Shown here piece by piece: positions 2,276-58,369 of a stretch of DNA of 64,000 bases. The stretch covers positions 14,176,812 to 14,240,811 of the forward strand of contig NC_057751.1 of assembly GCF_004010195.1 (NCBI RefSeq), written 5' to 3'. Position 1 is the stretch's first letter. Each line of letters starts with the position of its first letter. A model generated the notes under the pieces. The model was not told where the DNA came from. It saw nothing but the letters and a program-made list of their open reading frames with translations, and made no database searches. The stretch comes from Chiloscyllium plagiosum (Eukaryota). A program made the position numbers and the translations under genes.

Positions 2276-2849
2276 ATATGCCAGTGTAATCTCGCAAACT
2301 CCTGATGAGATGATGCATCTTTGGCTAAGTGTTAACTTCCATCCAGATGAAACAGAGGTTTTTATTTCCATTTATAAATCCTCATTTACTGTCATTTGGC
2401 TGTTACAATCATCACAGTTTTCACACACTGGATGACAAATTCAGTAGAGAGAAATAAAGGACTTTCATAGTCTCTAAAACTTTTTGATTTCTTCAGGGAT
2501 AATCCAACAAGAACGCAAAATTCAATACATTTGAGTTGGAACTCTGAATTCGACCATAATTCATTATCCCAGTTGCCCTACACTGTTAAGACTGGATCCA
2601 GTGTGTTCACCCCAACTCCATGATCCTTCTAAACTTTCCATCAGTTTGATTTCCCATCATAAAGGCAGTGAATATGAACCTGAAAAGCATGTCCAATCCT
2701 ATGTTGAGCTTCAGACCTGAGTTTTGCGTTACATGACCTGCCCTTGCTGGAACCAATTACTTTCATTTCCATAATATTGTGTTGCAAGCCATCTATTGTT
2801 AAAACACTCTGGCAGATGCTATCTTTGACCTTACACAAAATAATCCAAG

Positions 2850-3065
2850 ATTAGAGTGGTGCTGGAAAAGCACAGCAGGTCAGGCAGAATCCGAGGAGCA
2901 GGAAAATCAACACTTTGGGCAAAAGCCCTTGGGCTTCTGATGAAGGGCTTTTGCCCGAAACGTCGATTTTCCTGCTCCTCGGATGCTGCCTGACCTGCTG
3001 TGCTTTTTCAGCACCACTCGAATCTAGACTCTAATCTCCAGCATCTGCAGTACCCACCTCCGCCT
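2850..3065. mobile_element. Short palindromic Penelope-like (pLTR-derived) insertion with 15-bp TSD
   Basis: Inverted arms 2849-2930 / 2943-3024; acaaaataatccaag at 2835-2849 and 3066-3080; arm sequence matches the end of the GIY-YIG element at 57777. Confidence 0.85.
2937..2964 (+). ncRNA. Minimal hammerhead ribozyme core
   Basis: CTGATGA-A-GGGC(tttt)GCCC-GAAA-CG-TC: conserved boxes, 4-bp stem II, palindromic ACGT stem III. Confidence 0.65.
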
Positions 3066-19840: not shown

Positions 19841-19940
19841 GACGTTTCCTGATGAAGGGCTAATGCTTGAAAAGTCGATTCTTCTGCTCCCTGGATGCTG
19901 CCTGACCTGCTGTACTTTACCAGCACCACACTCTCGAACG
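19841..19940 (+). mobile_element. Penelope-like pLTR fragment nested in the LINE
   Basis: cctgatgaagggc...gaaaagtcgatt...ggatgctgcctgacctgctg matches 2937-3024. Confidence 0.8.
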
Positions 19941-29173: not shown

Positions 29174-29647
<474 letters not shown>

Positions 29648-31670
29648 TAGATGTGTGGTGATTGATTGGTTAATGTATTTCCTCAATATTATTTGAGAGA
29701 AGAATACAGGACAGGATATGAGAGGAACCCTCGTTGTACTTGACATTAATTCCATGAGAAGTGTATTATCCATGTGAGAAGGTAGTTCATTTCAATAAGT
29801 GAAAAACAATGTCATTGAGATTACGGTCCCAGACCAGGCTGCCCAATTTGCGTTGCAGTCTGACAAGGGAGCAATAACTTTTTTGTTTTAGGTTGACGAA
29901 GTGAGATATTCCAGGTACTTGATAAGAGAATAAAGTCAGTATTCCAATATTTGGAAAGAACTACACAAAGTTGGAATGGTAATAGAACCTACCATATATA
30001 TTTCTGTGTATTAACTTATTTTTGAACTTCTGAAATTAACCTGAGGTCAACATAGGTAACATGAACTGTGGTTGAATGCCCCACAGAGCATGACACATGT
30101 GGTCAAGACAGATCCCACAGATTTCTAAGTAAACACCACTCCCAACATTAGTAACTACAGATCAATCAATTTAATCAAAATGTTGCATGTGATTCCTGTT
30201 GTTCTGTTCAGCAGATCTAGCTTCAGAATTTCTTCAAACAACACTCTGTCAAGTAATGGCTCAATGACTACTCACTCCCTGGTAGTTCATCTTCCTTTCC
30301 CAGTTCTGTACTCCCCTGGATTCTTAAAAATGCACTCCAGTACTGAGAGGCACAACCATACTTTTTCACAGACAACTAGCTTCACCAAGCCAGGACTGCT
30401 CCTGATCTGTTACTGCACAGAATGATCCAACCACTCTGGGTCTTCTCTTTGCACTCCAACTAGACAGCAGCAGTGTTAATTTTGCGCATCAGTCTCCTTG
30501 GTGGAACTTTGTCAAAAACATCTGAAAACCATACAATCCACATCCACTGGCTCCCCGATCATCTCTTTTTGTTACATTCCCTAAGAATTCCAGTAGATTG
30601 CTCAAACGTGCTTCCCTTTTGTAAATCCATACTGACTGTGTCTGATTCTACCACTGTTTTCAAAGTACTCTACTATAAAATCCTTGATGATAAACCTTTG
30701 CATCTTCACCACTATGGGTAGCTGACTCACACTCGTTATAATTGGTTCAGCGGTTTATTACCAACAAATTTACATTACAAAAGATTGAAACAAAGTAAGC
30801 GTAAAACATTACCTGAGGTAACCACTAAAATTTTAAAGCCAGAATCAACATAGTTTAAACGATGGGTAAACAGCATTATGCAGTGAGTTATAAACTGTGC
30901 ATTATACATTGGCAGCCCACTCAGTGCCGGTCATCAATTTCAGTCACATTTTCAAAATGCTGCATTGCTAATGAAGAATTGTAGCTCCTTTCCAATGGAC
31001 GTAGTATGATGTTCAGGCAACAGCAGCACGCAATCAATCTGAGTTCCACAAAAAAGTCAGGTCAGCAGAATCTGTTGCAAACCTCCCCAACGATGCCCAC
31101 AATGATCTAGCTGGTGTCGCTCCATTAGTGTTACCTTCAAGTTACGGGACCAGTTGCACCAGGTGTATGTTTGCTTATTTTCAGCTTCTGGATCTGAGCT
31201 CCATCTAGAGTCATCGTCTGGGATTTGATGGTTGTGTCTTTTTTTATATAGTTCCAGTCTTCCCAAAGTTTGTGTGCGTAATGAGTTTCAGTCTGAGATC
31301 ATTCCAGTTCCTAAGGAAACTGATTACTTTCTCTCCCTCCCTTTTCACTCAGTTTGTTTTTTTTAAACTGACCCAATAAAACCACAAAGTCCACTGCACT
31401 TGTTTGGCATTAGCCTGTAATTGAGAGGCTGTTTAGTTCTTTTAATGAAAATTAGAACTTGCGTATCATTGCAGAGGAGTGGAGGACAGTGGCATTGCCT
31501 GACAACAGCTAGTTTTGAGATGGATAGTGTATAAGCCTTTGCTGTGAAGAGACTCCAAGGTTTTAGTGAGATTGCAAGTTATTATGTATTCTAACTGGCA
31601 CTGAGCCGTGCTCACCCATCACCCTCAATCCAAATCCGACACTCAGGCTGTCAGTGCCCCAGTCTTTTTA

Positions 31671-31995
31671 AATTACATTACATTTCCTACAGTGCGGAAA
31701 CGGGCCCTTCAGTCCAAAAAGTCCACATCAACCCTCCGAAGAGTAACCCACCTTGGCTCATTTCCCAACATTTACCGCTCTCTAATGCCACCTAACATGA
31801 TGGAAATTTGGCATGGCCAGTTCACCTGACCTGCACATCTTTTGGAATGTGGGAGGAAACCGGAGCATCCGGAAGAAGCCCACGCAGACACGGGGAGAAT
31901 GTGCAATCTCCACACAGACAGTCGCCCAAAGTGGGAATCGAGCCCGGCTCCCTGGTGCTGTGAGACAGCAGTGCTAACCACTGAGCCACCGTGCT
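31671..31995 (-). mobile_element. HE1-like V-SINE, full length
   Basis: Reverse complement of 44572-44890: tRNA head, V-domain ttctccccgtgtctgcgtggg, CR1-like tail. Confidence 0.9.
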
Positions 31996-32519
31996 GATTT
32001 AAAATCTCTTGTCTTGTCTGTGGACCCTTGTGTAGCCTAACCTTTTTCTAAAGAACATGAGTGAATCAGAAGGCTTTTTATGATAGTTGATGACAGTTGT
32101 TATAGTCACCATCATTGAGACAAGGTTACTGTTCAAGATATCCTTCATGGAAAAGTGGCGTAGTGGGATTTTAAGCGATGTCCACAAAGCTGGACACCGA
32201 GACCAGTTGCTCACTGACTGATGTTTTACACCACCATCTCACCCTACGTTGCTCTCATGCCCACATAGTTGTCTTTGGTATGAATTCTGAAAGTTCCTGC
32301 TTGCAAGAAGTTGCCCAAATCCCTTGTCCACTTATTACATGCAAATAACCTGCCTCAGCTTTGCAAAAAGAGCATTTTGGATTCCAAGTCAGTGAAAATT
32401 TGTTTTATTAACCTCACTTTCGATTAGTTGCTTACGATCTTAAAAGTAGGGTTCCCAGCTATTGGCTCACTCACCAGTGAGAACAGTATTTCTCTGGGAA
32501 CTTTGTAGAGCAGAACTAC

Positions 32520-32875
32520 AAGTAAATTCGTGATCTCAATTCATGATCTAGAGTCAGAAGTTCAAATTTCACTATAGCTGCTGCACAATTCAATTCAAAT
32601 TTAATATTTGTAATAACAAGATATTATTGGTGACGGTGGCCATGAAACTACAGGGTTGTCATAAACCCATCTGGTTCATTCCTGACCTCCAAGATAGGAT
32701 ACTCAGTCCGGCATATATTGGACTCCAAACATACAGCAATGTGGATTACTTGAAAGTGCCCTCTGAAGTAGTCTAGCAAATCCGTCAGTTGTTTTTACCT
32801 TCTCAAAAGCAGTGAGGGGTAGTCAGTAAATGCTGGCCTTGTCAGCGATACCCACATTCTGTGAATTAAAAATAA
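32520..32875 (+). mobile_element. tRNA-derived SINE (second family), degenerate
   Basis: Similar to 46105-46475; tail resembles the 3' end of the second LINE family. Confidence 0.65.
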
Positions 32876-33514
32876 AATTGAAAAAACCTTCATTGGTTCA
32901 TCTTTTAACCTTCTCTGTTCAAGATGATTAATCGAACTGTTGCCGAAAACTGAATTTTGTCATCCCCGAGAGCACATACGTTTTGTATCTATCCTTCATT
33001 TGATAGCCAGAATGGTCCACATAACTTCAACTGAGGTTAACCAGAGATTAAGAAAGTTTAAAATTATCACTTTGTTTTTATATTCTGTTCCATTGCGAGT
33101 TAAATGAACATCAGTTTGCTCAGCCTTTGCAAATGAAAGCAAGCTGTTTGTCAAAGACAAATAGTATCGAGTGAACTTCATTGAATTATTTGAAGAGGCC
33201 TGGAGCAGGCTGTTTAAGGTAGTTCCATTAATGTATCTTTGGACTTCAGGAAGAAATTCCATAAATAAGACCATAGACATAGGAGGAACTGTTCAACCCA
33301 TTAAGTCTGCTCTGCCGTTTAGTGAGATCACGGCTGATGAAAAATCCTTAACTCTAAAAGGACTTAGCTCAAGTGTCACCAGCCTTCATTTTCAGCAGCG
33401 GCAGGGGCAAGGACCAGGGGACTGCCAGGAAGGTAAGTTTCCCTGTAAAAGGACTTAGTTGGGTCATCACCAGCCTTCATTTTCCAAGGATTTAGCTTTT
33501 CCAAGTAATGACAG

Positions 33515-34790
33515 ACGGGGTGAGCCTGATGTCAGTGGTAGGGAAGCTGCTGATGAAGATACTGAGGGATAGGATCAGTCAATTCATGTGGATGAAAATG
33601 GTCTTATCAGTGATAGGCAGTATGATTTTATGCAGGGGAGGTCATGTCTTACCAAAATAATAGAATTCTTTGAGGAAGTGACAAGGTTGATTGATGAGGG
33701 AAGGGCTGTAGATGTCGTATACAGGTCATATACATGGACTTCAGTAAGGCATTTGATAAGGTTCCCCATGGTAGACTGATGGAGAAAGTGAAGTTGCATG
33801 TGGTTCCAGGATCTGCTTGCTAGATGGATAGAGAACTGGCTGGGCAACAGGAGACAGTAGTAGTGGAAGGGAGTTTCTCAAAATGGAGACCGGGTGACCA
33901 GTGGTGTTCCACGGGGATCTGTGCTGGGACCACTGTTGTTTGTGATATACATAAATGATCTGGAAAAAGGTATAAGTGGTCTGATTAGCAAGTTTGCACA
34001 TGACATGAAGATTGGTGGAGTAGCAGATAGTGAAGGGGACTTTCCGAGAATGCAGCCAAATATAGATTGGAGACTTTGGGCAGAGAAATGGCAGATGGAG
34101 TTCAATCTGGACAAAGGTGAGGTGATGCATTTGGGAAGATCCAATTCATGAGCGAACAATGCGGTAAATGGAAAAGCCCTGGGGAAAATTGATGTACTGA
34201 GAGACCGAGGTATTCAGGTCCATCGTACCTTGAAGGTTGGAACGCAGGTTGACAAAGTGGTCAAGGAGGCATATGGCATGCTTTCCTTCATCGGATGGGG
34301 TATTGAGTGCAAGAGTTGGCAGGTCATGTTGCAGTTGTATAGGACGTTAATTTGGCCAGATTTGGAATACTGTGTACAGTCCTGGTCACCACATTACCAA
34401 AAGGATATGGGTGCTTTGGAGAGGGAGAGGTTGAAATTAGGATTATTTTCATTAGAAAGTTGGAGGTTGAGGGCGGTCCTGATTGAGGTCCACAAAATCA
34501 TGAGAGGTATAGACAGGGTGGATAGCAAGAAGCTTTTTCCCTGAGTAGGGGACTCTATTACTTGGGGTCAGAAAAGTTTAAGGGAGGTATGCGTGGAAAA
34601 TTCTTTACACAGAGGGTGGGTGCCAGAGACGTGTTGCCAGTGGAGGTGGTAGAGGTGGGCATGATAGTGCCATTTAAGATATATCTAGAAAGATACATGA
34701 ATGGGCAGGGGGCAGAGGGATCAGATCAGTACAAAATAGATGACAGGTTTAGATAGATGATCTGGATCGGCGCAGGCTGTAATTTTCTTT
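33515..34790 (+). mobile_element. CR1 LINE 3' fragment
   Basis: GRSCLTKIIEFFEEVT, TSGVPRGSVLGPLLF, LEYCVQSWSP. Confidence 0.92.
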
Positions 34791-34877
34791 GTTCCGCTTT
34801 ACTGTGTTTTCCTATAATCCTTGATTCCCTTATTACTTATAAAATCTGTCTATCGCAGTCTTGACAATCCTTCATAA

Positions 34878-35581
34878 TGTTATGAAGATGTGTGTTTACC
34901 TTTGAGAGTTAAAAGCAGCAGAACTACCGGACACAGCACCAAGTGCTTTCAATAAGGCAGCAATGTAACACTGAGTCGAACAACTCGATTAGTTCATTAC
35001 GTGGAGAGAAAAACAAATTCGAATTCAGCCAATCATTTTAAAATTATACCCTGAAAATATACCAATTTCCAATCAAGTTTGAGTTGAGTATGTTGACAAT
35101 CTTAAAAGCCAGTGACACAATTGGATGCTGCGGTGTATAAAACCAGGGGAAAAGTGAACAGTTGAGAGGAGAACTGCATCGTCCTAGCATGTAACAGACT
35201 GCTTGATAAAAATCTCTCTCTTAAAAGTACCTTTTTAATCAGTAACCTGTCACGCAGAAGTTCCTAATAAGGAGAAAAGAAGGCACAGGAAGATCCAAAG
35301 ACAAGAACCTACAGCTGCCTGGTTTTGAGATAAGTGTTGTTTTGTAAATCTTACTTGGGAGTTTTATCAGACTAGTGTTATTGAAGGGAAGGTAAAAGAT
35401 AGGTTAGAGTAAGGACTTGTACATAGTTGTTAGCTAATTATTCTCTGTTATACTTTAAGAAATAAAGTTGTTAATTTTTACTACTTGGCCACTCGAATTT
35501 TTACAGATTACTGTACGGGATAAATCTTTACTGAGTTGCTAGTTTAAAATTAAGCAAGAGAGTTTACTCCGTGTCGTAACA
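34878..35581 (+). repeat. Left LTR (704 bp)
   Basis: Begins tgttatga, ends tgtcgtaaca; TATAAAA at 35136-35142, AATAAA at 35461-35466; followed by PBS. Confidence 0.93.
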
Positions 35582-35584
35582 GTT

Positions 35585-35604
35585 TGGGGGCTCGGGTCTG
35601 TGAT
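35585..35604 (+). promoter_or_regulatory. Primer binding site, tRNA-Pro type (degenerate)
   Basis: tgggggctcg-gg-tctgtgat, 3 nt after the LTR; the tRNA-Pro PBS is TGGGGGCTCGTCCGGGAT. Confidence 0.85.
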
Positions 35605-35763
35605 TTGAACTGTTCAGACAAACTTGAATAGATTTGGGGTATGAAAAATTCCAGCAGATTTAAACACTTGCAGGTTAGTGTTCGAGATCTTCAAATAAAA
35701 CACAGGTGAGACAATTTGTTTAATTTTGGTGACTTGTGGTTGATTAAATTAAAAGTGAGGGAA

Positions 35764-36900
35764 ATGGCTCTTAAAATTGCAGAAGAGGTTCTGGGATTTG
35801 AAGATGATTATCAAATTTGCCAAGAAAGTTTAGAAGGAAAGAAAAAGACCATATTTTTAGAAATGGACAAGTGCAGTAGAGGTAGAACAACTGAAATGAC
35901 AATTGAGGAAAATGGAGTTAGAAGGTAAACTTAGAGGGAGAGAGAAAGGGAAAGAGAGAAAAGAAAGACAGAGAGAGGAAAAAGAGAGGGAAGGTTCTTG
36001 ACTGACCAGAGAGAGAGAGAGAGAGAGAATGTGAACTTGAGAAGTTGCGACTTTGTCAAGCAAAGTCAAGTTAACAGGATGGAGATTAAAAGAGAAGATA
36101 GTGATACCTGTAAATATGTCAAAACACAGGCACATTTTGATGAGGAAGATGTTGAAGTTTTCTTTATTTCACTTGAAAAATTGCCGAGGCCAATGGAGTG
36201 GTCCAAGGATTTATAGGTAATGTTATTTCAGACTAAATTGGTAGGCAGAGCTAGTGAGGTATTTACTGCGCTGTCAGATGAGGGTTCAAGAGATTATGAA
36301 GAGGTTAAACAAGCTATTTTAAGTGCTTATGAATTGGTACCAGAAGCATATAGACAGTGGTTCAGAAACACAAAGAAGGAATCAGGTCAGACTTATGTTG
36401 AGTTCGAAAGAATTAAACATGGTCATTTTGATCAGTGCGTGTGTACTTTGAAAATCGATAGGACATTTGAGGCTCTCGGAGAGATTATTCTGCTGGAGGT
36501 GTTTAAAAACTCACTTCCAGAGATGGTAAGAATTCACATGGAGGAACTGAAAGTTCAGAAGTGAGAAGGGCATCAGAATTAGCAGATGAGGACGTGCTGG
36601 TGCATAAGACAAGCTTCTGGCCAGAATTTCGTCCTCTGAAGATTAGAAGGGCAGATCCTACACTACTAAACCAAGAATCGAGCACACTGGTAAGATGTCA
36701 CCACAGGTTAAAGGAGCCCAAGACAGTGGACAGGAGGTGAAAGGCCTCAGGTGTTTTCACTACATTGGAGTGGGACACAGAAAATTACAGTGCTGGTGGT
36801 TCAAGAAGAGCACTGGGAAAAGGTGTCTTCACTGCCAGAAGGTGGGACACGTGAAGACACACGTTGCTGGTCTTTAAAGAAAGGCATTGTGGGAAAAGAC
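35764..36900 (+). pseudogene. gag remnant with SCAN-like capsid domain and two zinc knuckles
   Basis: YEEVKQAILSAYELVPEAYRQWFR...EIILLEVFKNSLPEMVRIH (ORF 36220-36564); CFHYIGVGHRKLQC and CLHCQKVGHVKTH (ORF 36695-36877). Confidence 0.85.
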
Positions 36901-37084
36901 TTGGTAAAAGAAGCGACGCCGGTGGCATTAGTGAAGGTAGTAAAGGCGACCCTAGGAAGAGCTGAGGATCTGCAGGAGAGTGCACAGCTTAAGCAGAGTC
37001 TGGGAAGGGAGTTAGTCCCTGATCTTCAAAAAATTTGCCTCCGTGGGTAAATTTTACTCAAACAACAGGGGGAGAAGGGCAAGA

Positions 37085-39017
37085 AGTTATAATTTTCAGA
37101 GATGCAGGATCGAACTACTTGCTGTGATAGGAAGGGATGAGTGAATATTCACAATTTCTAATCTGTTATCTGAGAGTGTGGTAATTTGTGGGACAGATGG
37201 ATAGAAATTTAGCGTTACCCGATGTAAGGTCAGGTTGGAGTGCCAACTTGAGGCTGGGGAAATTACAGTGGGAGTGATTGACTGAGTTTCAATTCCAGGA
37301 TTTAGTAAGATCCAAGATGGGAGTGACACCCCCTTTTGTGGAGAAGCCCAAGGAAAACCAAGAAACTGAGGAGTTAAAACAGAAATATCCTGACATTTTC
37401 CCAGACTGTGTCGTAACCAGATCCCACTATCGTAAGTCACAGCATGAAGTGAAAACTAAAGAGGAAGATGAAGGGGTTGAGGTTCAATTAGCGGATACCC
37501 TGTTTGACGTAATGGTGCAGGAAAAACCTGAACAGACAGAGGTGTTTAGTCCTGAAAGGGTAAGAGACTCGCAACAGTAAGACAAGATGATAAAAGATAT
37601 ATATATATGTGTGGATGTGTACTCTGAAAAGGAGGCAGAGAATATTCTGGAGGGTTGTTATCTGAAAGGTAGAATCCTCAGACAGGAATGGAGACCACGG
37701 CAGGTTAGTGCAGAGGAGAAATGGGCCGAAGTGCACTAGATTGTATTGCTGGTAGTGTCCAGACAGGAAGTGTTGCAGGTACCACATGAACTACCTGGAG
37801 GAGGTCACTGAGAGGTACGAAAGATTCTGGCAAAAGTACAAAAACATTTCTATTGGCCTGGAATGCTCAAGGATGTGTTTAACTTGTGCCGGATGTGTCA
37901 TACATGCAAAATGGGAGGTAAGCCACAGGCAGTAATAAAACCAGCACGTTTGTTGCCAATTCCCATATTTGAAGAACCTTTCACGTGGGTTATAATTGAT
38001 TGTGTAGGTCCCCTCCCAAGAATTAAAAGTGGGAACCAGTACTTGTTAACCATCATGGATGTGTCTACCAGATTTCCCATGGCAATTCCATTATGCAGTA
38101 TCAAGGCAAATAAGGTGGTAGAGGAGTTGGTAGCCTTCTTCACACAGTATGGGCTACTCAGATTCAGTCGGACCAAGGGTGAAATTTTCCTGCTAGGCTG
38201 TTTAAGGAAATTATGGATAGCTTCGGTGTAAAGCACTTTTCATCCTGAATCCCAGGGAGCTTTGGAAAGGTGGCATCAGACCTTGAAGACCATGTTAAGA
38301 GCATACTGTCAGGATTACTCGAATGATTGGGATAAAGGTATCCCATTCGTATTGTTTGCCATTAGAGATGCCCCAAATGAATCTACTCAGTTCACTCCTT
38401 TTGAGTTCATAATTGGTCATGAAATGAGAGGCTGTGTGAAATTAATTAAAGAAACTTTGACAGGATCAAAGTCGGAGATCTTACAATTAGATTATGTGTC
38501 GAAGGTGAAGGAGAGATTAACTCGAGGAGGTGAGTTAGCTAAACAGCACCTAAAAAGGGCACAGTGGAAAATGAAGCAGGTGGCAGATAAAAACTCTGAG
38601 GCTCGGTCGTTTCCCCAAAGGGATAACGTGTTCGTACTGTTACCAATGATAGGAGATCCCTTCAAAGCTAAGTTTAGTGGTCCATATCAAATTGAGAAAA
38701 AGTTGTGTCAGGTGAAGTATTTGGTAAAGATGCCAGAGGAGTGGGATGGATTAGTAAGCTATCTGTCTCAGGAGCATAGAACAGAGTTGAAAGGTTTATT
38801 ACTACAGTATAAGGACATATGTAAGAATCAGGTGGGGAGGACTAATACTATTGTACGTGAAGCAGGCATAGGGAATACTACTCCGATAAAACAATATTCC
38901 TATTGGCTTAATCCTCTCAAAGCCAGACAGGTCCAGGTGGAGGTGGAGGTCATGCTTGACGAGAACATCATGAAACCAAACCAGAACCAATGGAGTTTGT
39001 CAATCGTCTTAGTTCCC
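37085..39017 (+). pseudogene. pol remnant: aspartic protease, integrase (zinc finger, DDE core, GPY motif), then the first residues of RT
   Basis: IIFRDAGS near 37089-37112; FYWPG..CRMCHTC, IIDCVGPLP, LTIMDVSTRFP, HPESQGALERWHQTLK, FSGPYQI; then PIKQYSYWLNP...MLDENIM...WSLSIVLVP, where it breaks off. Confidence 0.9.
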
Positions 39018-39035
39018 ATCCTGGACGAGCCCTCA
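39018..39035 (-). promoter_or_regulatory. Second tRNA-Pro PBS attached to the inverted LTR
   Basis: Reverse complement tgagggctcgtccaggat matches TGGGGGCTCGTCCGGGAT at 16/18, with the same gtt spacer as the left copy. Confidence 0.88.
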
Positions 39036-39038
39036 AAC

Positions 39039-39750
39039 TGTTATGACATTGAGTAAACTCTCCTGCTTAATTTTAAATCAGCTGCACAGAAAAGATTTTT
39101 CCCATGCAGTAATCTGTAGAAATTTGAGTGGCCAAGAAATATATAAAGGAAAAACTAACAACTTTATTTCTTAAAGTATAACAGAAAATAATTAGCTAGC
39201 AACTATGTACAAGTCCTTACTCTAACCTATCTTTTATCTTCCCTCCTATAACACTAGTCTGATAAAACTCCCAATTAAGATTTACCAAACAACACTTCTT
39301 ATCTCAAACCCGGGCAGCTGTAGGTTCTTGTCTTTGGATCTTCCTATATCATCTTTTCTCCTTGTTACGAATTTCTGCATGACAGGTTACTGATCAAAAA
39401 GGTACTTTTAAGAGAGAGATTTTTATCAAGCAGTCTGTTACCTGCTAGGACGATGCAGTTCTCCTCTCAACTGTTCTATTTTCTCCTGGTCTTATACCTC
39501 AGAGCATCCAATTATGTCATTGGCTTTTAAGATTGTCAGTATACTCAATTCAAACATGATTGAAAATTGGTATCTTTTCAGGGTATAATTTTAAACTGAT
39601 TGGCCAAATTCAAATTTGTTTTTGTCTCCAGGCAAAAAACTAATCGAGTTCGACCTGGTGTTACATTGTTGCCTTATTGAGAGCACTTGGTGCTGTGTCT
39701 GGTAGTTCTGCTTTTAACTCTCTTAAAGGTAAACACACATCCTCATAACA
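39039..39750 (-). repeat. Right LTR (712 bp), inverted relative to the left LTR
   Basis: Reverse complement reads tgttatgaggatgtgtgtttaccttt...tgtcataaca, colinear with 34878-35581; by eye roughly 85-90% identical. Confidence 0.93.
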
Positions 39751-41225
39751 ATAACGAGGCCTCAACAACCTTCTGTGATAACGAATTCCTCAGATTTTCT
39801 GTCCTCTGAGAGAATTCCTTCTCGTCGCTGTCTTAAATTTGTGACTCCTTGTTCTGAGATTTTGCCCTTTGGTCCTGGACTACCCTCCAAGGGGGAGCCA
39901 TCTTTCCAAATATCAAGTCCTTTAAGAGCTTTGAATGTTTCAATAAGGTTGCTTCTAATTCTTCCAAACTCCACCAAGTGGCAATCCCAATCTATTCAAC
40001 TGTTCCTCAAGACAGTACTCATAACTAGTCTCAACTGAGTGAAACATTCTCTGGACTGTTTCCAATACCAGTACATCTTTTCTTAGGTGAGGGGTCTGTT
40101 GATCCTAGCCCAGCTGTGGTTTGATGATTGCCTTGTATAGCTTTAGTAAGACTTCCCTAATAGTTTAATTAAGACCTCGCTACATTTATATTCCATTTCC
40201 TTTCGAATTAAAGGCCAGTGCTCCAGTTGTCCATTACCTGCTGAACCTGGATGCTAGCTCACTGTGATTCACAGAGGAGGACTCCCAAATCCTTCTGTTC
40301 CAAAGTTTCTGCAGTCTTTCTCACCAAAGCACACACCCTCACATTATATTCCATCCATCACGTTTTTGCCCATTCACTGAATCAGTCTGTACCCTAGTGC
40401 AGCCTGTTTGCCATTGTTACCACTTGCCTTCCCGTCTTTCTCATGTCATCCACAAACTTGTTTATTAGACATTGTCTTCCCTCTTTCAAGTCATTGATTT
40501 TTTTTGTTGTTCCATGTGGCCCCAGAGCAGATTCTTACGGCACTCCCTCGTGACAGATTGTCATCCTGAAAATACCCACTTTAGCCCAACTCTTTGTTTT
40601 GTCTTGATAGCTCATTCTCGATCCGTGCTGATATACAACTCATACACCCGGGACTCTTACTTTTTTATTAAGTAGCCTAATGTGTATTAACTTGGCAAAA
40701 TGAAGTACCCCTCAGGAACGTTTTACAGTGGCAGCCTTTGGAAGTGACAGTGTTAGTTTGTTTTGAAAACACTCTTGTGAAGTGCATTGTGATGTATTAT
40801 CGTACTAAAATGCTTCATAACTTCACATTGTCATTTTTGAGAAACAAGAACTTGCGTTAAGCCTTTAATGTTGTAAGCCATTTGAAATGAATTGAAATAC
40901 ACCAAGGTTTTGGACTGGCGTGAATCGCATTCAAGAGTGCAGAGTTGTGGTAATTGTGGGAACTAGTTCTTGATTGATAGCTATGAGACAGTTGTATATC
41001 TTACTAATTGCTCCTTATGAAAAGCTCTGTTTTACGTGCTGTTGACATGATTACTTGGTGGTTGCAAAATGGACTTTGGCTCAGGCTGCTGTAAAATTTT
41101 CATAAGCTGACAATTGGCAACTGAATTGAATGTTAAACCTAAGTGGACCAGCCAAATAGCACAGAGGACATGGGTCATTGGTCCCTCTTTACTTGGCCAA
41201 TTTTGGGAGGCAGTATGTAGATGGT

Positions 41226-41445
41226 TGAAACTTTATTGCTGGAACAGCACAGCAGGTCAGGCAGCATCCAGGGAACAGGAGATTCGACGTTTCGGGCACA
41301 GGCCCTTCTTCAGCCTGTGATGTATTCGGCCTGTGCCCGAAACGTCGAATCTCCTGTTCCCTGGATGCTGCCTGACCTGCTGTGCTGTTTCAGCAATAAA
41401 GTTTCAACTTTGATCTCCAGCATCTGCAGACCTCACTTTCTCCTC
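41226..41445. mobile_element. Short palindromic Penelope-like insertion with 15-bp TSD
   Basis: Arms 41224-41304 / 41328-41408 with one mismatch; cagtatgtagatggt at 41211-41225 and 41446-41460. Confidence 0.88.
41286..41313 (-). ncRNA. Minimal hammerhead ribozyme core
   Basis: Minus strand CTGAAGA-A-GGGC(ctgt)GCCC-GAAA-CG-TC. Confidence 0.65.
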
Positions 41446-41606
41446 CAGTATGTAGATGGTGCCTAGTGAAACTGTTGGAGATGGGCTGCCTCCATTGAGA
41501 AGGGTGGATGTCGCACGTAGTACAGTTGGACCTCTGTGGCTGAAAAAAGCCAATGTTTTGCAAAATGCTATATATTTACAAGTGGCAAAATCATAAAGAT
41601 GAATAA

Positions 41607-41807
<201 letters not shown>

Positions 41808-52695: not shown

Positions 52696-54051
52696 GTATA
52701 AAGTAAACAAGAAATGTTGGCTTTACAGAAACATGGTATTGTACAGAGTGTTGCTGCAGTATTTACTTACAGTCAGCAATTTATCCTCGCCAGGAGAGAC
52801 TAAATCCTGATTGTGCAACTGGTGAGCATTGGTAGAGACCTAATCAACATTTTGGATGCTTCTGTTTCAGTTCTAGTTTTGCTTGTATCCATTTCCATTC
52901 TCGGGCACACTCCAAGATACGAGGACTTCTTCCGGGGTCCTCTGTCCTTGCCTTGGATCCTGGTTCCATAGCTTGTTGCACTCAGTACTCATTTTTACTG
53001 ACGCTCCAAGCCCCTTATCCAATTCTGTTCAGGGGCACCATTAATAAATGCCATTACTATGAATCTGTGCATCTGGGAAAAATCTTCCCAATCTCATCCC
53101 TTCACCTTAGTTAACAGTTTTCAGAGGCATTACTCAATTCCTTGTACTTCTTACGTGAGCTTCGATATTCCAAATCAATTCTGATTAAGCAGGTAAGCAA
53201 CAGGCTCAGTGATGGAGTGCTTTGTTCGTCGTGCACTGACCTGCTCACGAGTCTTGCCATTGTTGTGGGATTAGCAACTCGTGATGGCTTCACATAAGAA
53301 TCTTTTGCTTCAGCATGCAGCTGGAATGTGCAAACCTGAATGGAAAACGCATCACACATTCCATGGAAAAATGGGAAGAATGAAAAGTCCAATCATAGAA
53401 TCTGTCCTAATTGCATAGCAGTTCTGTTTGTTGAGGTGTGTTTTATATTTCTCAATTTACAATATATGTGTTTGTGACATATACCCAGCACCATATTGTT
53501 GACTTAATGCACCTGGTCCTTCCAGTACAGAACAACCCTTCAGTGTTGATTGCATCCCACTTAATGTGGACCATGTTACAAAATTGGAATGTTCTTTTTC
53601 CAGAATACTGCCGCCACCCAAGAGTGGGGCAGTGTTTTCCATGATTCAAACCAGCAACTCTCAAATTGTATTAATGCCTCAAATAAAAAGCTATGTCTTG
53701 AATATTTTCCAGCAAGAAAAAAACAAATTCATTTGTCAGAAAAGGTAATGAGCCAAGCACCATCAGCTTTTCACTTGCTCCATAAGAGTCATGTCTTCTT
53801 GAATGTTCTGGTATATTCGTGTAAAAGGGTAGCTTTATAAACATTCACCGAACATAAGATGCCTCTTTTCCAGCAGGTGGTGTACTATACCTTTCATTTT
53901 TGTGCCACTATTTGTGAATTATAAATTGATTCCTTGTTTTGTAACACTGATTTCTTAATGGCAAAATAAGTTGCGTTTTAGAAGCGGTTGGTTCAGTCTA
54001 CGAAAGTGCTTTTTGAATCATCAAACCTGAATACTTTGTCTCCTTCCACAG

Positions 54052-54368
54052 ATCAAAAGGTTCTCAGCCGTTTGACAAGGAGAGGCAAGGTCCTGGTCGG
54101 GGTCGTAAGCGCAAAATCTCAGCAGTCCCTTCGAAGCCGGGACGATTGGATGGACTGAGCTCCTTGAATTCGCGAACCACCAAATCCTCCCGCCTGAAAA
54201 TGAACAAGAAAACCAAAGGGCTCATTGATGGCCTTAGCAAATTCTTCACCCCTTCGCCCGATGGCCGCAAGCCACGGGGTGAACTCCTGGACTTAGCTGA
54301 GCAATACAGGCTTAAACGAAAGGGCCCACGAAAATCAAGCACTTCTGACAACAGCACATGGCCCACAG
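54052..54368 (+). CDS. KAT6A: KAT6A internal coding exon, short form (317 nt)
   Basis: Acceptor ttgtctccttccacag, proximal donor CAG|gtactg. SKG...[10 protein letters not shown]...[23 protein letters not shown]...[12 protein letters not shown]; joining to 60428 gives WPT-DNQD as in recalled KAT6A. Confidence 0.92.
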
Positions 54369-54911
54369 GTACTGCACTGACCTCATTAACCCCTGCATGC
54401 CCAGTATCACCTGACATGTCTGTACCAGCACGAAGGTGCCATTTAAGCAGCATCAAATCATCTCCCTGTACTAGCCGTTTTGATAACGTCAGTAAGCAGG
54501 CATTCACTGGCCATTTAAATGTATGCAGAATGCCCAGGTTAAGAAAGGAGCCAACTGACATTGCTTCCTCTCTGTATACTCCCAAACCCTCTGATGAAGC
54601 AGACACTGAATTAACTCCTCCTTGTCTTACACCTTGTGAACCTTGCCCTACTTCCATTGATAAATCTGCTCTCCCAAGCGATTGGGACAGTAGCAAGAAA
54701 AACAATTCCACTTTGCAAATCTCACCATACCTACGACTGAGTACATCCGTAGACACGGCTGCTAAACTGCACTCTCATTATTTCCTGCCATTTTCTGTGA
54801 GAGAGAAAGCAATAAGGGGCAGCCGGTGTAAAATGAGACATGGAAAGACGATCCTTTGGCACGGGAAAGGGAACGTGGAATTAGGAAGGAATAAAAGTGC
54901 CGAGGACAAGG
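54369..54911 (+). CDS. KAT6A: Putative alternative in-frame extension of the preceding KAT6A exon (543 nt, 181 aa, Ser/Pro/Thr-rich) via a distal 5' splice site
   Basis: Frame stays open past the proximal donor to AAGG|gtaaga (GT at 54912-54913), same phase 1 as the proximal donor; the first stop comes just after it (54920-54922). Confidence 0.7.
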
Positions 54912-57776
54912 GTAAGAAGTAAATGCCATGCCATCATGCATCGCTAGCACTAGAAGTTGGCTTTTTATTGCGCTTTTTTTGGGATGCTTCAGTCAGTTGC
55001 TGTTGACTTTTGGGAGGGAGGGTTGGACTTATGCCATGAAAGTAGCTCTGCACATTCTCATTTCGTGAAAAAGCACAGTAGGTCCAGTAGAATCTCAAAA
55101 GCGAAAAGGCAGATTGATATTTTTGGTAGAGACGTTTATTCACAATATTTTACTTGTCAAATGCTCAAATGTAATCTGCTCTTTATTTTCTATTTTCCTG
55201 ACTTAATTCCAAATCTCTCATCTTCATGTAATGATTAAAGTTAATGAATTGGCCAGAATATGGATGTCTTGGAAAAGAGGTGGAATTGCAACCCAGAGCG
55301 GCTGACTTGCATTGCTTTTCTCCGGCTAGATTGGAAATAAGCGGCGGCACACAAATGTTGCAAGTGAACAAGTGCAGTGTCACCGCTGTTGGGCATATCT
55401 TTCATGGCATGAGAGGAACATCCATTTGAAATGGAAAATATTCCTCAAGGTCGAGTTGGCTGAGAAAATCTTGTCACGTGCAGATTGATACGGCCAGATC
55501 ACTTGCAGAGTATTTTCCTAATTGTGTAGAATTGCATCGTGTTGCCTGTTGCTTTTTATTATTCAAAGCATTTCCACTCACTAGGATTTGTAGGGCTAGA
55601 ATAAAGCTGGAACTCTTTATTGTGTTAGAGACACACAAGCGCTCTTGTAACTTAAAGATGAGAAATTGGACCTTCTGATGTTCACTCTGCTATTCACTCA
55701 GCTCATGACCAGTCTCCTGCCTCATCTCTATCTTTTCTGTACTTACATCAATGTAATTTTATCCATTTCATTTTCTAAAGTTCCAATCTCTGATTTGAAC
55801 ATACACAGTGACCAAATGTCAACAGCTCTCAAGGATAGATCTCTCTTTTCCCCTCTTCACTACCCACATCCTCCTCTTCTCCCTTTTGTGAAAAAAAAAC
55901 TCCTTTTCATAATAGAATCTTCTGCCAAACTCCTTTTTCTGAAAAAAAACAATGTTAGTGAGATTTCCCCTCTCCTCTGAACTCGCAGGAATGTAGATTT
56001 ATTCTGAAAATGAAAATATTGGAACTCCCTTCCTACCTGCATGAAGCAGTGTTGAACCCATTAGGCCAACACTGAGCGCATGGCAGTTGTAACTTCGCTC
56101 CGACCCTAAGCAATTGCAGCAAGATTTCTTTCCTTGTATAAGCTAGGCACTTAGCAAGAAAGGTTCATGTCGTATTTACTTAGCAAATTGCTTGCTGTGT
56201 CTCCAGACGATTTTTCTTGAATTCATATACAAGGACACCTAGATGTCTCTAAGTACCAGCATTGATTTCCCAATCTGTCAACAGTATTCTGCGTTTCTAT
56301 TTTTTTTCTCTATCAAAGTGGCGAACTTCAGATTTCTTCAAGTTAGATGCCAGCTGCCACAATCTTGCCCATTGACTTTCATTGACCTGAATTCCTCTAC
56401 AGGTTCTTTTGCGTTCTCCTCAAGCTTGCTTTCCCACTGAAATTTGTATCGTCTGCCATCTTCAGAAGGTTACTCTGTCTCCTCTACTAAGTCTTGTTGT
56501 CACCACTAACTAGCTGAGGCTGAAGTGTTGATGCTTATGGCAGCCTGTCAATCCCAATATGACCCAGTTATTCTGGCTGTTGTTTTCTGTCCATTAGCTA
56601 CTCCTCAATCCATGATTAATATTATACTTGTAAATCTGATTGACCCAAATACCACCATGTACCACCTTGTTGAAGAGTTATTCAAAGTCCTACTTTATGA
56701 CTCTAGATTCATTCTATTCCCATTTACTGTTAATTCCTACCCATTTTGTAATGCTCATCCTCAAGAGGCATGTTCCATCCTTGATTTGAGGCACTGATGT
56801 AGAAAACCATCTTGATTGCATTCTGTGATCAGCACGTCCATACTCTCGTTGGAAATGTTGTTTGGCGGAATTATTCAAGTCTGACAGAGTGTGTTTATCC
56901 TTGCGACAGATACCTGTGACTTTCTGACCATTACCTTGCTCAACACTGCAACAGTTGTTTTGGGGCCCACAATTATTTATTGCCTTTTAGTGATTTCTCC
57001 TGCTATCCCAATTCATTGTACTACTTGATTTTCTGAACTAAGTTTCTTTCTGTTGACGATCTTTATCCTATTTATGTCCATTTAGCACGTCTTTTAAAAA
57101 TCCAATGACCTGAAGTATTTAATGCTTGTTCTTGGTCATTCAGCACCCATATTTCTGTGATGGTTGATGGATCAAATCAATTTGTTTTTCTCTATGCTAT
57201 TCATCTGTTTTGGAAGCTTTTGTGCCCATGAATGTAATGCCTTAACTAGCATTTATTTCTGTTTTTCCATGGTGCCATCCTAGTCATGAGCACCCCTGTT
57301 TCTTTCCTCATCTTTTCGTCCACATGTAACGCATTTTGTGTACCTTTACCCAAATAGCTGTCTTATTGTTCTTATGCTGTTGGAATTACCCACAAGCCCA
57401 TTCAATACTTTCAAGTCCTAGTTCATTTGTTGCCAGGATACGAATCCCAGCTGGGTTAAGAAAGTCTTTCACAACAGAACAGCTCCCTTTTTCTTGCCTA
57501 CTGATGTCATTACCCCCAAATCAAAGTCCCTGCCTACCACACCATTTCTTCAGCGTTACATTTAACCTTGTCATCTGGTTGACCAAATGTCCGTTCTCAC
57601 ATGGATCAGAGATTATTGCCATCATGTTTCTGAATGTTAATCTTAGCCCTGGCTCTTCAACTTGTTCAGGAGAATCTCCTCCTTAGCCTTTTATTCTTAA
57701 TTTCTCAACGGATTGCAATAACTGGATCATTGGACTTGTCAAAGTTACACTCCAGCCGTGCGAGATGTACTTAAGT

Positions 57777-58369
57777 TTAGATTAGAGTGGTGCTGGAAAA
57801 GCACAGCAGTTCAGACAGCATCCGAGGAGCAGTAAAATCGACGTTTCGGGCAAAAGTCCTTCATCAGGAATACGGGCAGAGTGCCTGAAGGGTGGAAGAT
57901 ACATGAGAGGAGGGTAGGGGTGGGGAAAAAGTAGCATAGAGTACAATAGGTGAGTGGGGGAGGGGATGAAGGTGTTAGGTCAGGGGGGACGGTGGAGTGG
58001 TTAGGTGGAAAAGGAAGATAGGCAGGTAGGACAAGTCATGGAGCTGGAAGGCTGGAGCTGGGGTGAGGTTGGGGAAGGGGAAATGAGGAAACTATTGAAG
58101 TCCACATTCATGCCCTGGGGTTGAAGTGTTCCGAGGCGGAAGATGAGGCGTTCTTCCTCCAGGCGTCGGGTGGTGAGGGAGCGGCGGTGAAGGAGGCCCA
58201 GGACCTCTATGTCCTTGGCTGAGTGGGAGGGGGAGTTGGAATGTTGGGCCACGGGGCGGTGTGGTTGATTGGTGTGGGTGTCCCGGAGATGTCCCCTAAA
58301 GCGCTCTGCTAGGAGGCATCCAGTCTCCCCAATATAGAGGAGACCGCATCGGGAGCAATGGATGCAATA
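57777..58369 (-). mobile_element. Penelope-like element 3' fragment: GIY-YIG endonuclease plus pLTR
   Basis: YCIHCSRCGLLYIGETG..LAERFRGH...PVAQH...RRLEEERLIFRLGTLQPQGMN (ORF 58001-58411); hammerhead core on the minus strand at 57840-57867. Confidence 0.9.

What the first reader, a model, noticed from the sequence alone, without database searches (positions are those of the whole stretch)
34874..39754. Gypsy element with inverted LTRs that appears to have integrated as one unit
Seen: two ~700-bp LTRs face each other (34878-35581 on +, 39039-39750 on -), so both outer ends are the same U3 end. ATAA flanks both sides, and the flanks rejoin into one continuous minus-strand CR1 3' end. Established: LTR retrotransposons have direct LTRs and integrase makes short TSDs. 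Inference: this was one integrase-mediated insertion of a DNA with two U3 ends, not two insertions or a later inversion. It may be a one-off or a founder of a non-autonomous inverted-LTR family.
Basis: partly seen in the sequence, partly recalled or inferred. Interest (0 to 1): 0.85.

Follow-up and report, generated by a model that had tools for sequence, protein, structure and literature searches.

The report
Inverted-LTR Gypsy insertion retaining integrase
An old, dead retrotransposon copy in a KAT6A intron breaks off early in its reverse transcriptase and is capped by a back-to-front copy of its own front end; it is likely a copying error that the element's integrase likely inserted in one piece, and it leaves an integrase gene between inverted repeats, the shape once proposed as a step from retrotransposon to DNA transposon.

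Summary
Observation confirmed. Two LTRs (34878-35581 +, 39039-39750 -; 90% identical) face each other, ATAA flanks both ends, and the flanks rejoin as one LINE 3' end. First, the element is Gmr1-like (gag-protease-integrase-RT) and breaks off in RT at V-P|K-P-D-G. Second, the right LTR is a second 5' LTR with exactly 18 nt of primer binding site, the end expected of plus-strand strong-stop DNA. A single-copy-depth contig spans that junction without differences. The right end sits at the same site in two related species, so this is an old insertion, not a misassembly. Best explanation (0.7): a strong-stop DNA paired 3' end to 3' end with another plus strand at a PBS-like RT codon stretch, giving DNA with two U3 ends that integrase inserted. 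Later repair of a normal copy is not excluded (0.13), because the U3 start and U5 end share 8 bp. No inverted-LTR family is shown. The family's TSD length and its bases at the break were not obtained. The scan has noted this class about ten times on other DNA, once in this genome. My paper searches found no description.

The parts
34874..34877 (.). target-site duplication ATAA, left copy
   Evidence: chance about 0.005
34878..35581 (+). 5' LTR (U3-R-U5), TG...CA; TATAAA at 35136, AATAAA at 35461
35585..35604 (+). decayed primer binding site after a 3-nt spacer (2-nt insertion); tRNA-Pro identity is recalled, and the same PBS is present in Gmr1-like relatives
35995..36561 (+). gag remnant with SCAN-like capsid domain, broken by stops and frameshifts
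   Evidence: (SCAN E 5e-4, below the curated cutoff)
37065..37300 (+). protease-region remnant (weak, by alignment to relatives)
37296..38738 (+). linker plus integrase region (H2C2, rve core, GPY/SH3), full span but broken (4 stops in the main alignment, plus a small deletion near 38240)
38736..38737 (+). deletion of about 70 codons between integrase and RT; family reads diverge on both sides of it
   Evidence: P0003 residue 1013 to 1084; loose ends (217 and 182 reads in X22)
38736..39017 (+). start of reverse transcriptase, ending at V-P just before K-P-D-G; about 370 codons (RT core, RNase H), the PPT and the 3' LTR are missing
39018..39035 (-). second PBS, exactly 18 nt (16 of 18 identical to the PBS of relative L151), joined directly to RT sequence
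   Evidence: junction spanned by an X1 contig
39039..39750 (-). inverted second 5'-type LTR; its U3 start forms the right terminus
   Evidence: the end at this site is shared with organisms B and C
39751..39754 (.). target-site duplication ATAA, right copy
39755..40300 (-). target LINE 3' end, proximal part, contiguous with the distal part
29330..41631 (+). host intron of KAT6A between two consecutive double-PHD exons (about 29214-29329 and 41632-41713)
   Evidence: PDB 2ln0 residues 35-77 and 75-106

Best explanation
This is a dead Gmr1-like Gypsy copy that runs from its 5' LTR through gag, protease and integrase into the start of RT and then continues into an inverted LTR plus 18-nt primer site, likely made by a reverse-transcription error and likely inserted in one step by the family's integrase. 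Shown: the anatomy, the 18-nt junction, the 4-bp duplication, contiguous target sequence, presence in reads, and sharing of the right end with two other species. Inferred steps follow. (1) Plus-strand strong-stop DNA (U3-R-U5 plus 18 nt copied from the tRNA primer) was present in excess in the particle. (2) Instead of pairing with the minus-strand PBS, its 3' end paired with a plus-sense strand (a nascent plus DNA that had reached RT, or genomic RNA) at the K-P-D-G codons, which partly mimic the PBS complement. (3) Extension in both directions gave a linear duplex with a U3 end at each side. (4) Integrase accepted both ends, whose last 8 bp equal those of a normal U5 end, and made the ATAA duplication in a LINE 3' end inside a KAT6A intron. 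(5) The copy has since decayed neutrally. It cannot retrotranspose by its own means (no RT core, RNase H or PPT).
For: The junction lies at PBS position 18, and agreement among 12 relative PBSs drops at position 19 (the 12 were picked by an 18-nt match, so part of this is by construction). A random break lands within 1 nt of that point with chance about 0.0006 (assuming 5.3 kb of internal sequence). If the family codon is AAR for the K that is invariant in 15 of 15 aligned relatives, the crossover falls in a 1-nt island between mismatches. That fits a physical strand end better than a switch inside the longest microhomology. In 17 relatives the K-P-D-G site is in the top 1.1% (median) of positions for matching the 3'-terminal 10 nt of the PBS. 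Neither LTR has a PPT. The TSD and contiguous flanks are shown. Both LTRs align throughout U3, where only a minority of family reads match (X22 depth 135-210 against about 970), so they likely come from one subfamily. LTR divergence of 0.105 exceeds flank divergence to organisms B (0.025-0.033) and C (0.05), as expected if the structure predates those splits. Strong-stop DNAs are abundant in plant LTR-retrotransposon particles (PMC7197481, passages). RTs, including Tf1, join strands on very short 3' overlaps (PMC3035444, abstract and passages).
Against: The family's own bases at the break were not obtained; the complementarity is inferred from relatives about 64% identical in DNA, hand-picked (17 of 40 motif rows). 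It weakens with longer windows (top 3.7% for 12 nt, 8.1% for 18 nt). The 2nd and 3rd bases from the strong-stop 3' end would be mispaired. The published clamp needs 2 nt with a C or G, while this junction offers 1 nt. Both 3-bp indels between the LTRs are common variants among family reads (70 of 187 and 24 of 117), which may mean two different parents. Only 1 of 9 checked positions shows a rare letter shared by both LTRs, so 'identical at insertion' is not shown. The 8-bp terminal inverted repeat lets post-insertion repair mimic the same ends. The family TSD length was not tested. Integration through two U3 ends is recalled from in-vitro work; the passages read show only oligonucleotide ends of unstated type.
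Confidence: 0.7

Rival explanations
1. A normal direct-LTR copy inserted first. Later its 3' half (RT to 3' LTR) was replaced by an inverted LTR-PBS, through a replication template switch or a break patched with strong-stop cDNA, using the RT/PBS similarity at one side and the 8-bp LTR terminal repeat at the other. The original TSD survives.
For: The U3 start and U5 end match over 8 bp. There is further similarity just upstream of the junction (5 of 7 nt with the bases after the left PBS). Indel states may point to a different donor for the right LTR.
Against: It needs two precise joints instead of one. The crossover sits exactly at the 18-nt strong-stop end, not in the longer matching tracts. 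The inverted end is already present in organisms B and C.
Confidence: 0.13
2. A truncated cDNA and a double-stranded strong-stop fragment were joined before integration by host end-joining rather than by RT, then integrated by two U3 ends.
For: It gives the same final structure, TSD and 18-nt end, and allows two different parent RNAs (indels).
Against: It does not explain why the break coincides in register with a PBS-like site. No filler bases are seen.
Confidence: 0.1
3. Two independent insertions in opposite orientation, one nested in the other, were trimmed by deletions to the present shape (the route Bao et al. 2010 suggested for Ginger1 TIRs).
For: The family is high-copy (X22 depth in the hundreds against 0-2 at unique flank positions), and the LTRs differ by 10%.
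Against: It needs one deletion ending exactly at PBS position 18 and another ending exactly at the TSD, with no loss of target sequence.
Confidence: 0.04
4. The copy belongs to a family that spreads in inverted-LTR form, as a TIR-like element mobilised by integrase.
For: It has the architecture of TIR plus DDE integrase. Unchecked scan notes report many two-U3 copies per genome elsewhere.
Against: The junction contig has single-copy depth (22.7 against 20.8), and the junction bin has the lowest X22 depth among the element's bins laid. No excision mechanism is known, and a transcript would fold back on 700-bp inverted repeats (inference). Diverged sister copies could be hidden among the 48,768 pieces not shown.
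Confidence: 0.03
5. Assembly artefact.
For: High-copy repeat region; X1 may be the source sample.
Against: A de Bruijn contig spans the inner junction with 0 differences, the outer right junction is present in three organisms, and the two LTRs are 10% diverged, not copies of each other.
Confidence: 0.01

Closest known systems
Gmr1-like Ty3/Gypsy LTR retrotransposons (PMC8220671 passages; PMC11117352 passages)
   Same: Integrase lies upstream of RT (78 of 79 relatives with both motifs). It has a SCAN-type gag, TG...CA LTRs, the same 18-nt PBS as relatives, and up to 60% protein identity to relatives.
   Different: The LTRs are inverted, there are two PBSs and no PPT, the RT core and RNase H are absent, and all frames are broken.
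Aberrant second-strand-transfer products of retroviruses and LTR retrotransposons (older virology literature, recalled, not found in the library; strong-stop accumulation in PMC7197481)
   Same: A junction at the 18-nt PBS end of plus-strand strong-stop DNA.
   Different: Here the product has two U3 ends, was integrated with a TSD and became fixed in a vertebrate germ line.
Autointegration inversion circles (Ty1, Arabidopsis SISYPHUS; PMC7197481 passages)
   Same: An inverted segment with LTRs no longer in direct orientation.
   Different: Autointegration joins processed LTR ends to internal DNA. Here the inner U5 end is followed by its own PBS, so the inner junction is not an integrase joint.
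Ginger1 DNA transposons (Bao et al. 2010, PMC2836005; passages and Discussion)
   Same: A Gypsy-type integrase region between terminal inverted repeats starting TGT, a 4-bp TSD and no working RT. The paper proposes opposite LTRs around the integrase as a possible origin.
   Different: The repeats are 700-bp whole LTRs, not 40-270 bp. The TSD is not CCGG/CCGT. gag and an RT stub are retained, there is no sign of excision or multiplication, and the origin is likely one RT error, not two insertions.
DIRS-type elements with inverted terminal repeats (recalled)
   Same: Inverted long terminal repeats.
   Different: DIRS use a tyrosine recombinase. This element has a DDE integrase region, a tRNA PBS and a TSD.

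Membership tests
Gmr1-like Ty3/Gypsy | integrase upstream of reverse transcriptase | tested here: met
   definition from PMC8220671
Gmr1-like Ty3/Gypsy | protein similarity to IN-before-RT gag-pol relatives | tested here: met
   E 1.6e-81, 60%; 78 of 79 with both motifs, of 120 proteins
Gmr1-like Ty3/Gypsy | placement in the Gmr1 clade by RT phylogeny with named references | not tested
   RT core is absent from this copy; no named Gmr1 reference was fetched
Gmr1-like Ty3/Gypsy | PBS shared with relatives (tRNA-Pro by recall) | tested here: met
   16 of 18 identical to L151; the tRNA identity itself comes from no call (one search gave no tRNA match)
Intact LTR retrotransposon | two LTRs in direct orientation, PPT before the 3' LTR, complete RT-RNase H | tested here: not met
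Integrase-made insertion of this family | TSD of the family's length at both ends | tested here: inconclusive
   4-bp TSD present; family length unknown (76 loci examined gave no flanked copy; one search listed 2 papers, not read for this)
Ginger1 DNA transposon | 40-270 bp TIRs and CCGG/CCGT TSD | tested here: not met
   700-bp LTRs and ATAA against PMC2836005
Ginger1 DNA transposon | multiple copies spread by cut-and-paste | tested here: inconclusive
   single-copy depth of the junction contig; diverged copies could not be listed
Autointegration inversion product | processed LTR end joined directly to internal element DNA | tested here: not met
   the inner U5 end is followed by spacer and PBS
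DIRS | tyrosine recombinase in place of DDE integrase | tested here: not met
   Integrase_H2C2 (E 7.6e-10) and weak rve hits

The most novel reading that the evidence does not exclude
The RT K-P-D-G codons are a built-in decoy for the tRNA-Pro PBS. Gmr1-like elements would then repeatedly make RT-less copies with the whole integrase gene between inverted LTRs, inserted with a TSD. Because integrase precedes RT in this clade, one copying error yields, in a single step, the intermediate that Bao et al. hypothesised for the origin of Ginger1 DNA transposons, and some such copies may have been moved again by integrase.
Probability: 0.2. Interest if true: 0.75.

Novelty: new variant of a known kind. 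Interest (0 to 1): 0.45.

Why it matters
It is a dated, natural germ-line record of a plus-strand transfer error that integrase still accepted. LTR finders that require direct repeats would likely miss such copies. Bao et al. 2010 call the chain of events from LTR retrotransposon to DNA transposon unclear. This copy shows a one-step route to 'integrase between inverted repeats' and gives a sharp test: other inverted Gmr1 copies should break at PBS-complementary sites, above all at K-P-D-G. The copy itself is dead, looks single and has no shown effect on KAT6A. The class recurs in this scan, so its value is as one well-resolved example, not as a unique object.

Tried and rejected
No genome is held, so copy counts, family TSDs and the empty site could not be searched. 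Read support was obtained only for 37700-40400; the left half and the left junction are unchecked in reads. An LTR-end/PBS motif found 0 matches in metagenome contigs. P0003 found nothing in viral contigs. The right LTR found no look-alike among scan windows. Alignment A1 fetched 152 loci. I examined 76 of them (L001-L074, L151, L152) and left out L075-L150 (short or bacterial integrase-core matches). None was a close family member (best long matches about 64% DNA identity), none had usable flanked LTR pairs, and none had inverted LTRs (one 144-bp inverted match in L065, not at LTR ends). No tRNA gene in the window; Rfam gave only a chance match over the junction. Paper searches: 0 hits; one search gave 2 listings (one read as passages, irrelevant); some searches gave listings, of which three were read as passages with no description of integrated two-U3 elements. 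Older subscription virology papers are not in the library, so absence from print is not established. No supplements were read. Rejected: DIRS (DDE integrase), autointegration (PBS retained at the inner end), plain inversion between two separate elements (flanks contiguous with one TSD), misassembly, and a pure 2-nt clamp jump (only 1 nt available). The shared-rare-letter test for a common parent was inconclusive (1 of 9 listed positions; 882 further rows were not shown).
Full report
Observation. They are 90.3% identical over 698 ungapped columns, K2P 0.105. Both begin TGTTATGA and end TAACA on their own strands, so both outer termini are U3 starts. ATAA lies at 34874-34877 and 39751-39754; the chance of such a match is about 0.005. 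With one ATAA kept, the flanks align across the site to 2 of 6 candidate LINE 3' ends in the window. Scores were 113 and 119 against a shuffle maximum of 43, with 1-3 nt of gap; one further candidate matched the right flank only and three were at background. The site is in the 12.3-kb intron between two consecutive KAT6A double-PHD exons.

What the element is. The interior reads gag (SCAN-like), protease remnant, integrase (H2C2, core, GPY) and then the start of RT. Of 120 related proteins, 79 carry both motifs tested, and 78 of these have integrase before RT, the defining order of Gmr1 elements (PMC8220671, passages). The frames are broken, and about 70 codons are deleted at 38736/7, where family reads diverge on both sides. 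RT ends at V-P, just before the K-P-D-G motif (K at residue 1178 of 1549 in P0003). The RT core, RNase H, PPT and 3' LTR are absent.

The junction. The right LTR is a second 5' LTR. On its own strand it is followed by the same 3-nt spacer as the left LTR and by a PBS at 39035-39018, 16 of 18 identical to the PBS of relative L151, and then directly by RT sequence. Agreement among 12 relative PBSs falls from 8-12 of 12 at positions 1-18 to 4-7 of 12 beyond (they were selected on the 18-mer). By established knowledge (recalled), plus-strand strong-stop DNA is U3-R-U5 plus 18 nt copied from the tRNA primer, so the right arm is exactly that molecule, inverted. Neither LTR has a PPT. The break is also in register with a PBS-like stretch of RT. 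In 17 of 40 motif rows, hand-picked as closest relatives, the K-P-D-G codons match 4-7 of the terminal 10 nt of the PBS complement. The median rank is the top 1.1% of positions, falling to 3.7% for 12 nt and 8.1% for 18 nt. PKPDG occurs in 45 of the 70 proteins where the motif was found. The family's own bases there are unknown, so this step is inferred.

Reality and age. Laying four runs on 37700-40400 gave an X1 contig across the inner junction (38934-39114, no differences, depth 22.7 against 20.8 for the flank contig). Contigs of organism B (39701-40093) and organism C (39692-40400) cross the right LTR end into the same flank. X1 may be the source sample, and the inner junction was not seen among the listed pieces of B or C. 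Flank divergence is 2.5-3.3% to B and 5% to C, less than the 10.5% between the LTRs, consistent with an event older than those splits. The parent family is abundant (X22 depth 100-970 over the element against 0-2 at unique flank positions), but the junction itself looks single-copy. The left half could not be checked in reads.

Mechanism. Most likely (0.7), a surplus strong-stop DNA paired by its 3' end with another plus-sense strand at the RT decoy site. Extension both ways gave a duplex with two U3 ends, and integrase inserted it. The U3 start and U5 end are an 8-bp inverted repeat, so integrase would see nearly normal ends. Strong-stop DNAs accumulate in plant retrotransposon particles (PMC7197481, passages). 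RTs, including Tf1, bridge very short 3' overlaps, though the reported clamp needs 2 nt with a C or G and only 1 nt is offered here (PMC3035444, abstract and passages).

Against, and rivals. The same 8-bp repeat allows later replacement of the 3' half of a normal insertion with the TSD preserved (0.13). Host end-joining of two cDNA pieces before integration gives the same product (0.10). A common parent for both LTRs is not shown. At 8 of 9 listed positions the left LTR has the family majority letter and the right differs, and 1 of 9 is a shared rare letter. Both 3-bp indels between the LTRs are common family variants (70 of 187 and 24 of 117 reads). The 10.5% is therefore an upper bound on age. 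Two insertions plus two exact deletions (0.04), a spreading family (0.03) and misassembly (0.01) are unlikely. The family TSD length remains untested.

Comparison and novelty. The copy derives from a Gmr1-like element but fails the test for an intact LTR retrotransposon. It is not DIRS, not an autointegration product and not a Ginger1 member. It does have the shape that Bao et al. 2010 proposed as an intermediate from Gypsy to Ginger1, two opposite LTRs around the integrase, which they imagined arising from two insertions and called unclear (PMC2836005, Discussion). Here one error suffices, and the Gmr1 gene order keeps the whole integrase region. My paper searches found no description of integrated two-U3 elements, but the older virology literature is outside the library. 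The scan's own unchecked notes list about ten such structures on other DNA, one of them in this genome. I had written down the strong-stop reading before seeing them; the link to DNA transposons was prompted by one of them.

Verdict: real, old, dead, probably single; new variant of a known kind; interest 0.45.

Noticed in passing
window 29214-29329, 41632-41713, 54017-54922 (+): KAT6A exons: two consecutive double-PHD exons flank the element, and a long downstream exon was noted separately by the scan. The left LTR is in sense with the gene and the right LTR in antisense.
   Followed up: partly
window 33500-34877: A plus-strand LINE RT/3' piece abuts, tail to tail, the minus-strand LINE 3' end that received the Gypsy insertion about 100 nt from the join.
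   Followed up: partly
window 41224-41408: Near-perfect hairpin (81-bp arms, 99%, 23-nt loop) about 220 nt upstream of a KAT6A exon, with related palindromic copies at 2848-3025, 19846-19932 and 57774-57870; MITE-like.
   Followed up: no
window 35605-35610: The bases after the left PBS are complementary to the tRNA T-loop motif GTTCAA (motif recalled), so this family's PBS may pair with 24 nt of the primer tRNA; the 12 relatives do not share this.
   Followed up: partly
window 39590-39635: A short U3 box is shared by far more family reads than its surroundings (loose ends of 724 and 318 reads), suggesting a conserved promoter element across LTR subfamilies; it holds CCAAT on the LTR strand.
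   Followed up: no
L003 1-16090: Tandem array of Gmr1-like units, period about 5.8 kb, 99% identical over 4.6 kb; could be an assembly repeat.
   Followed up: no
L073, L074: Gmr1-like animal-type retrotransposon sequence inside bacterial genome bins, probably host contamination.
   Followed up: no
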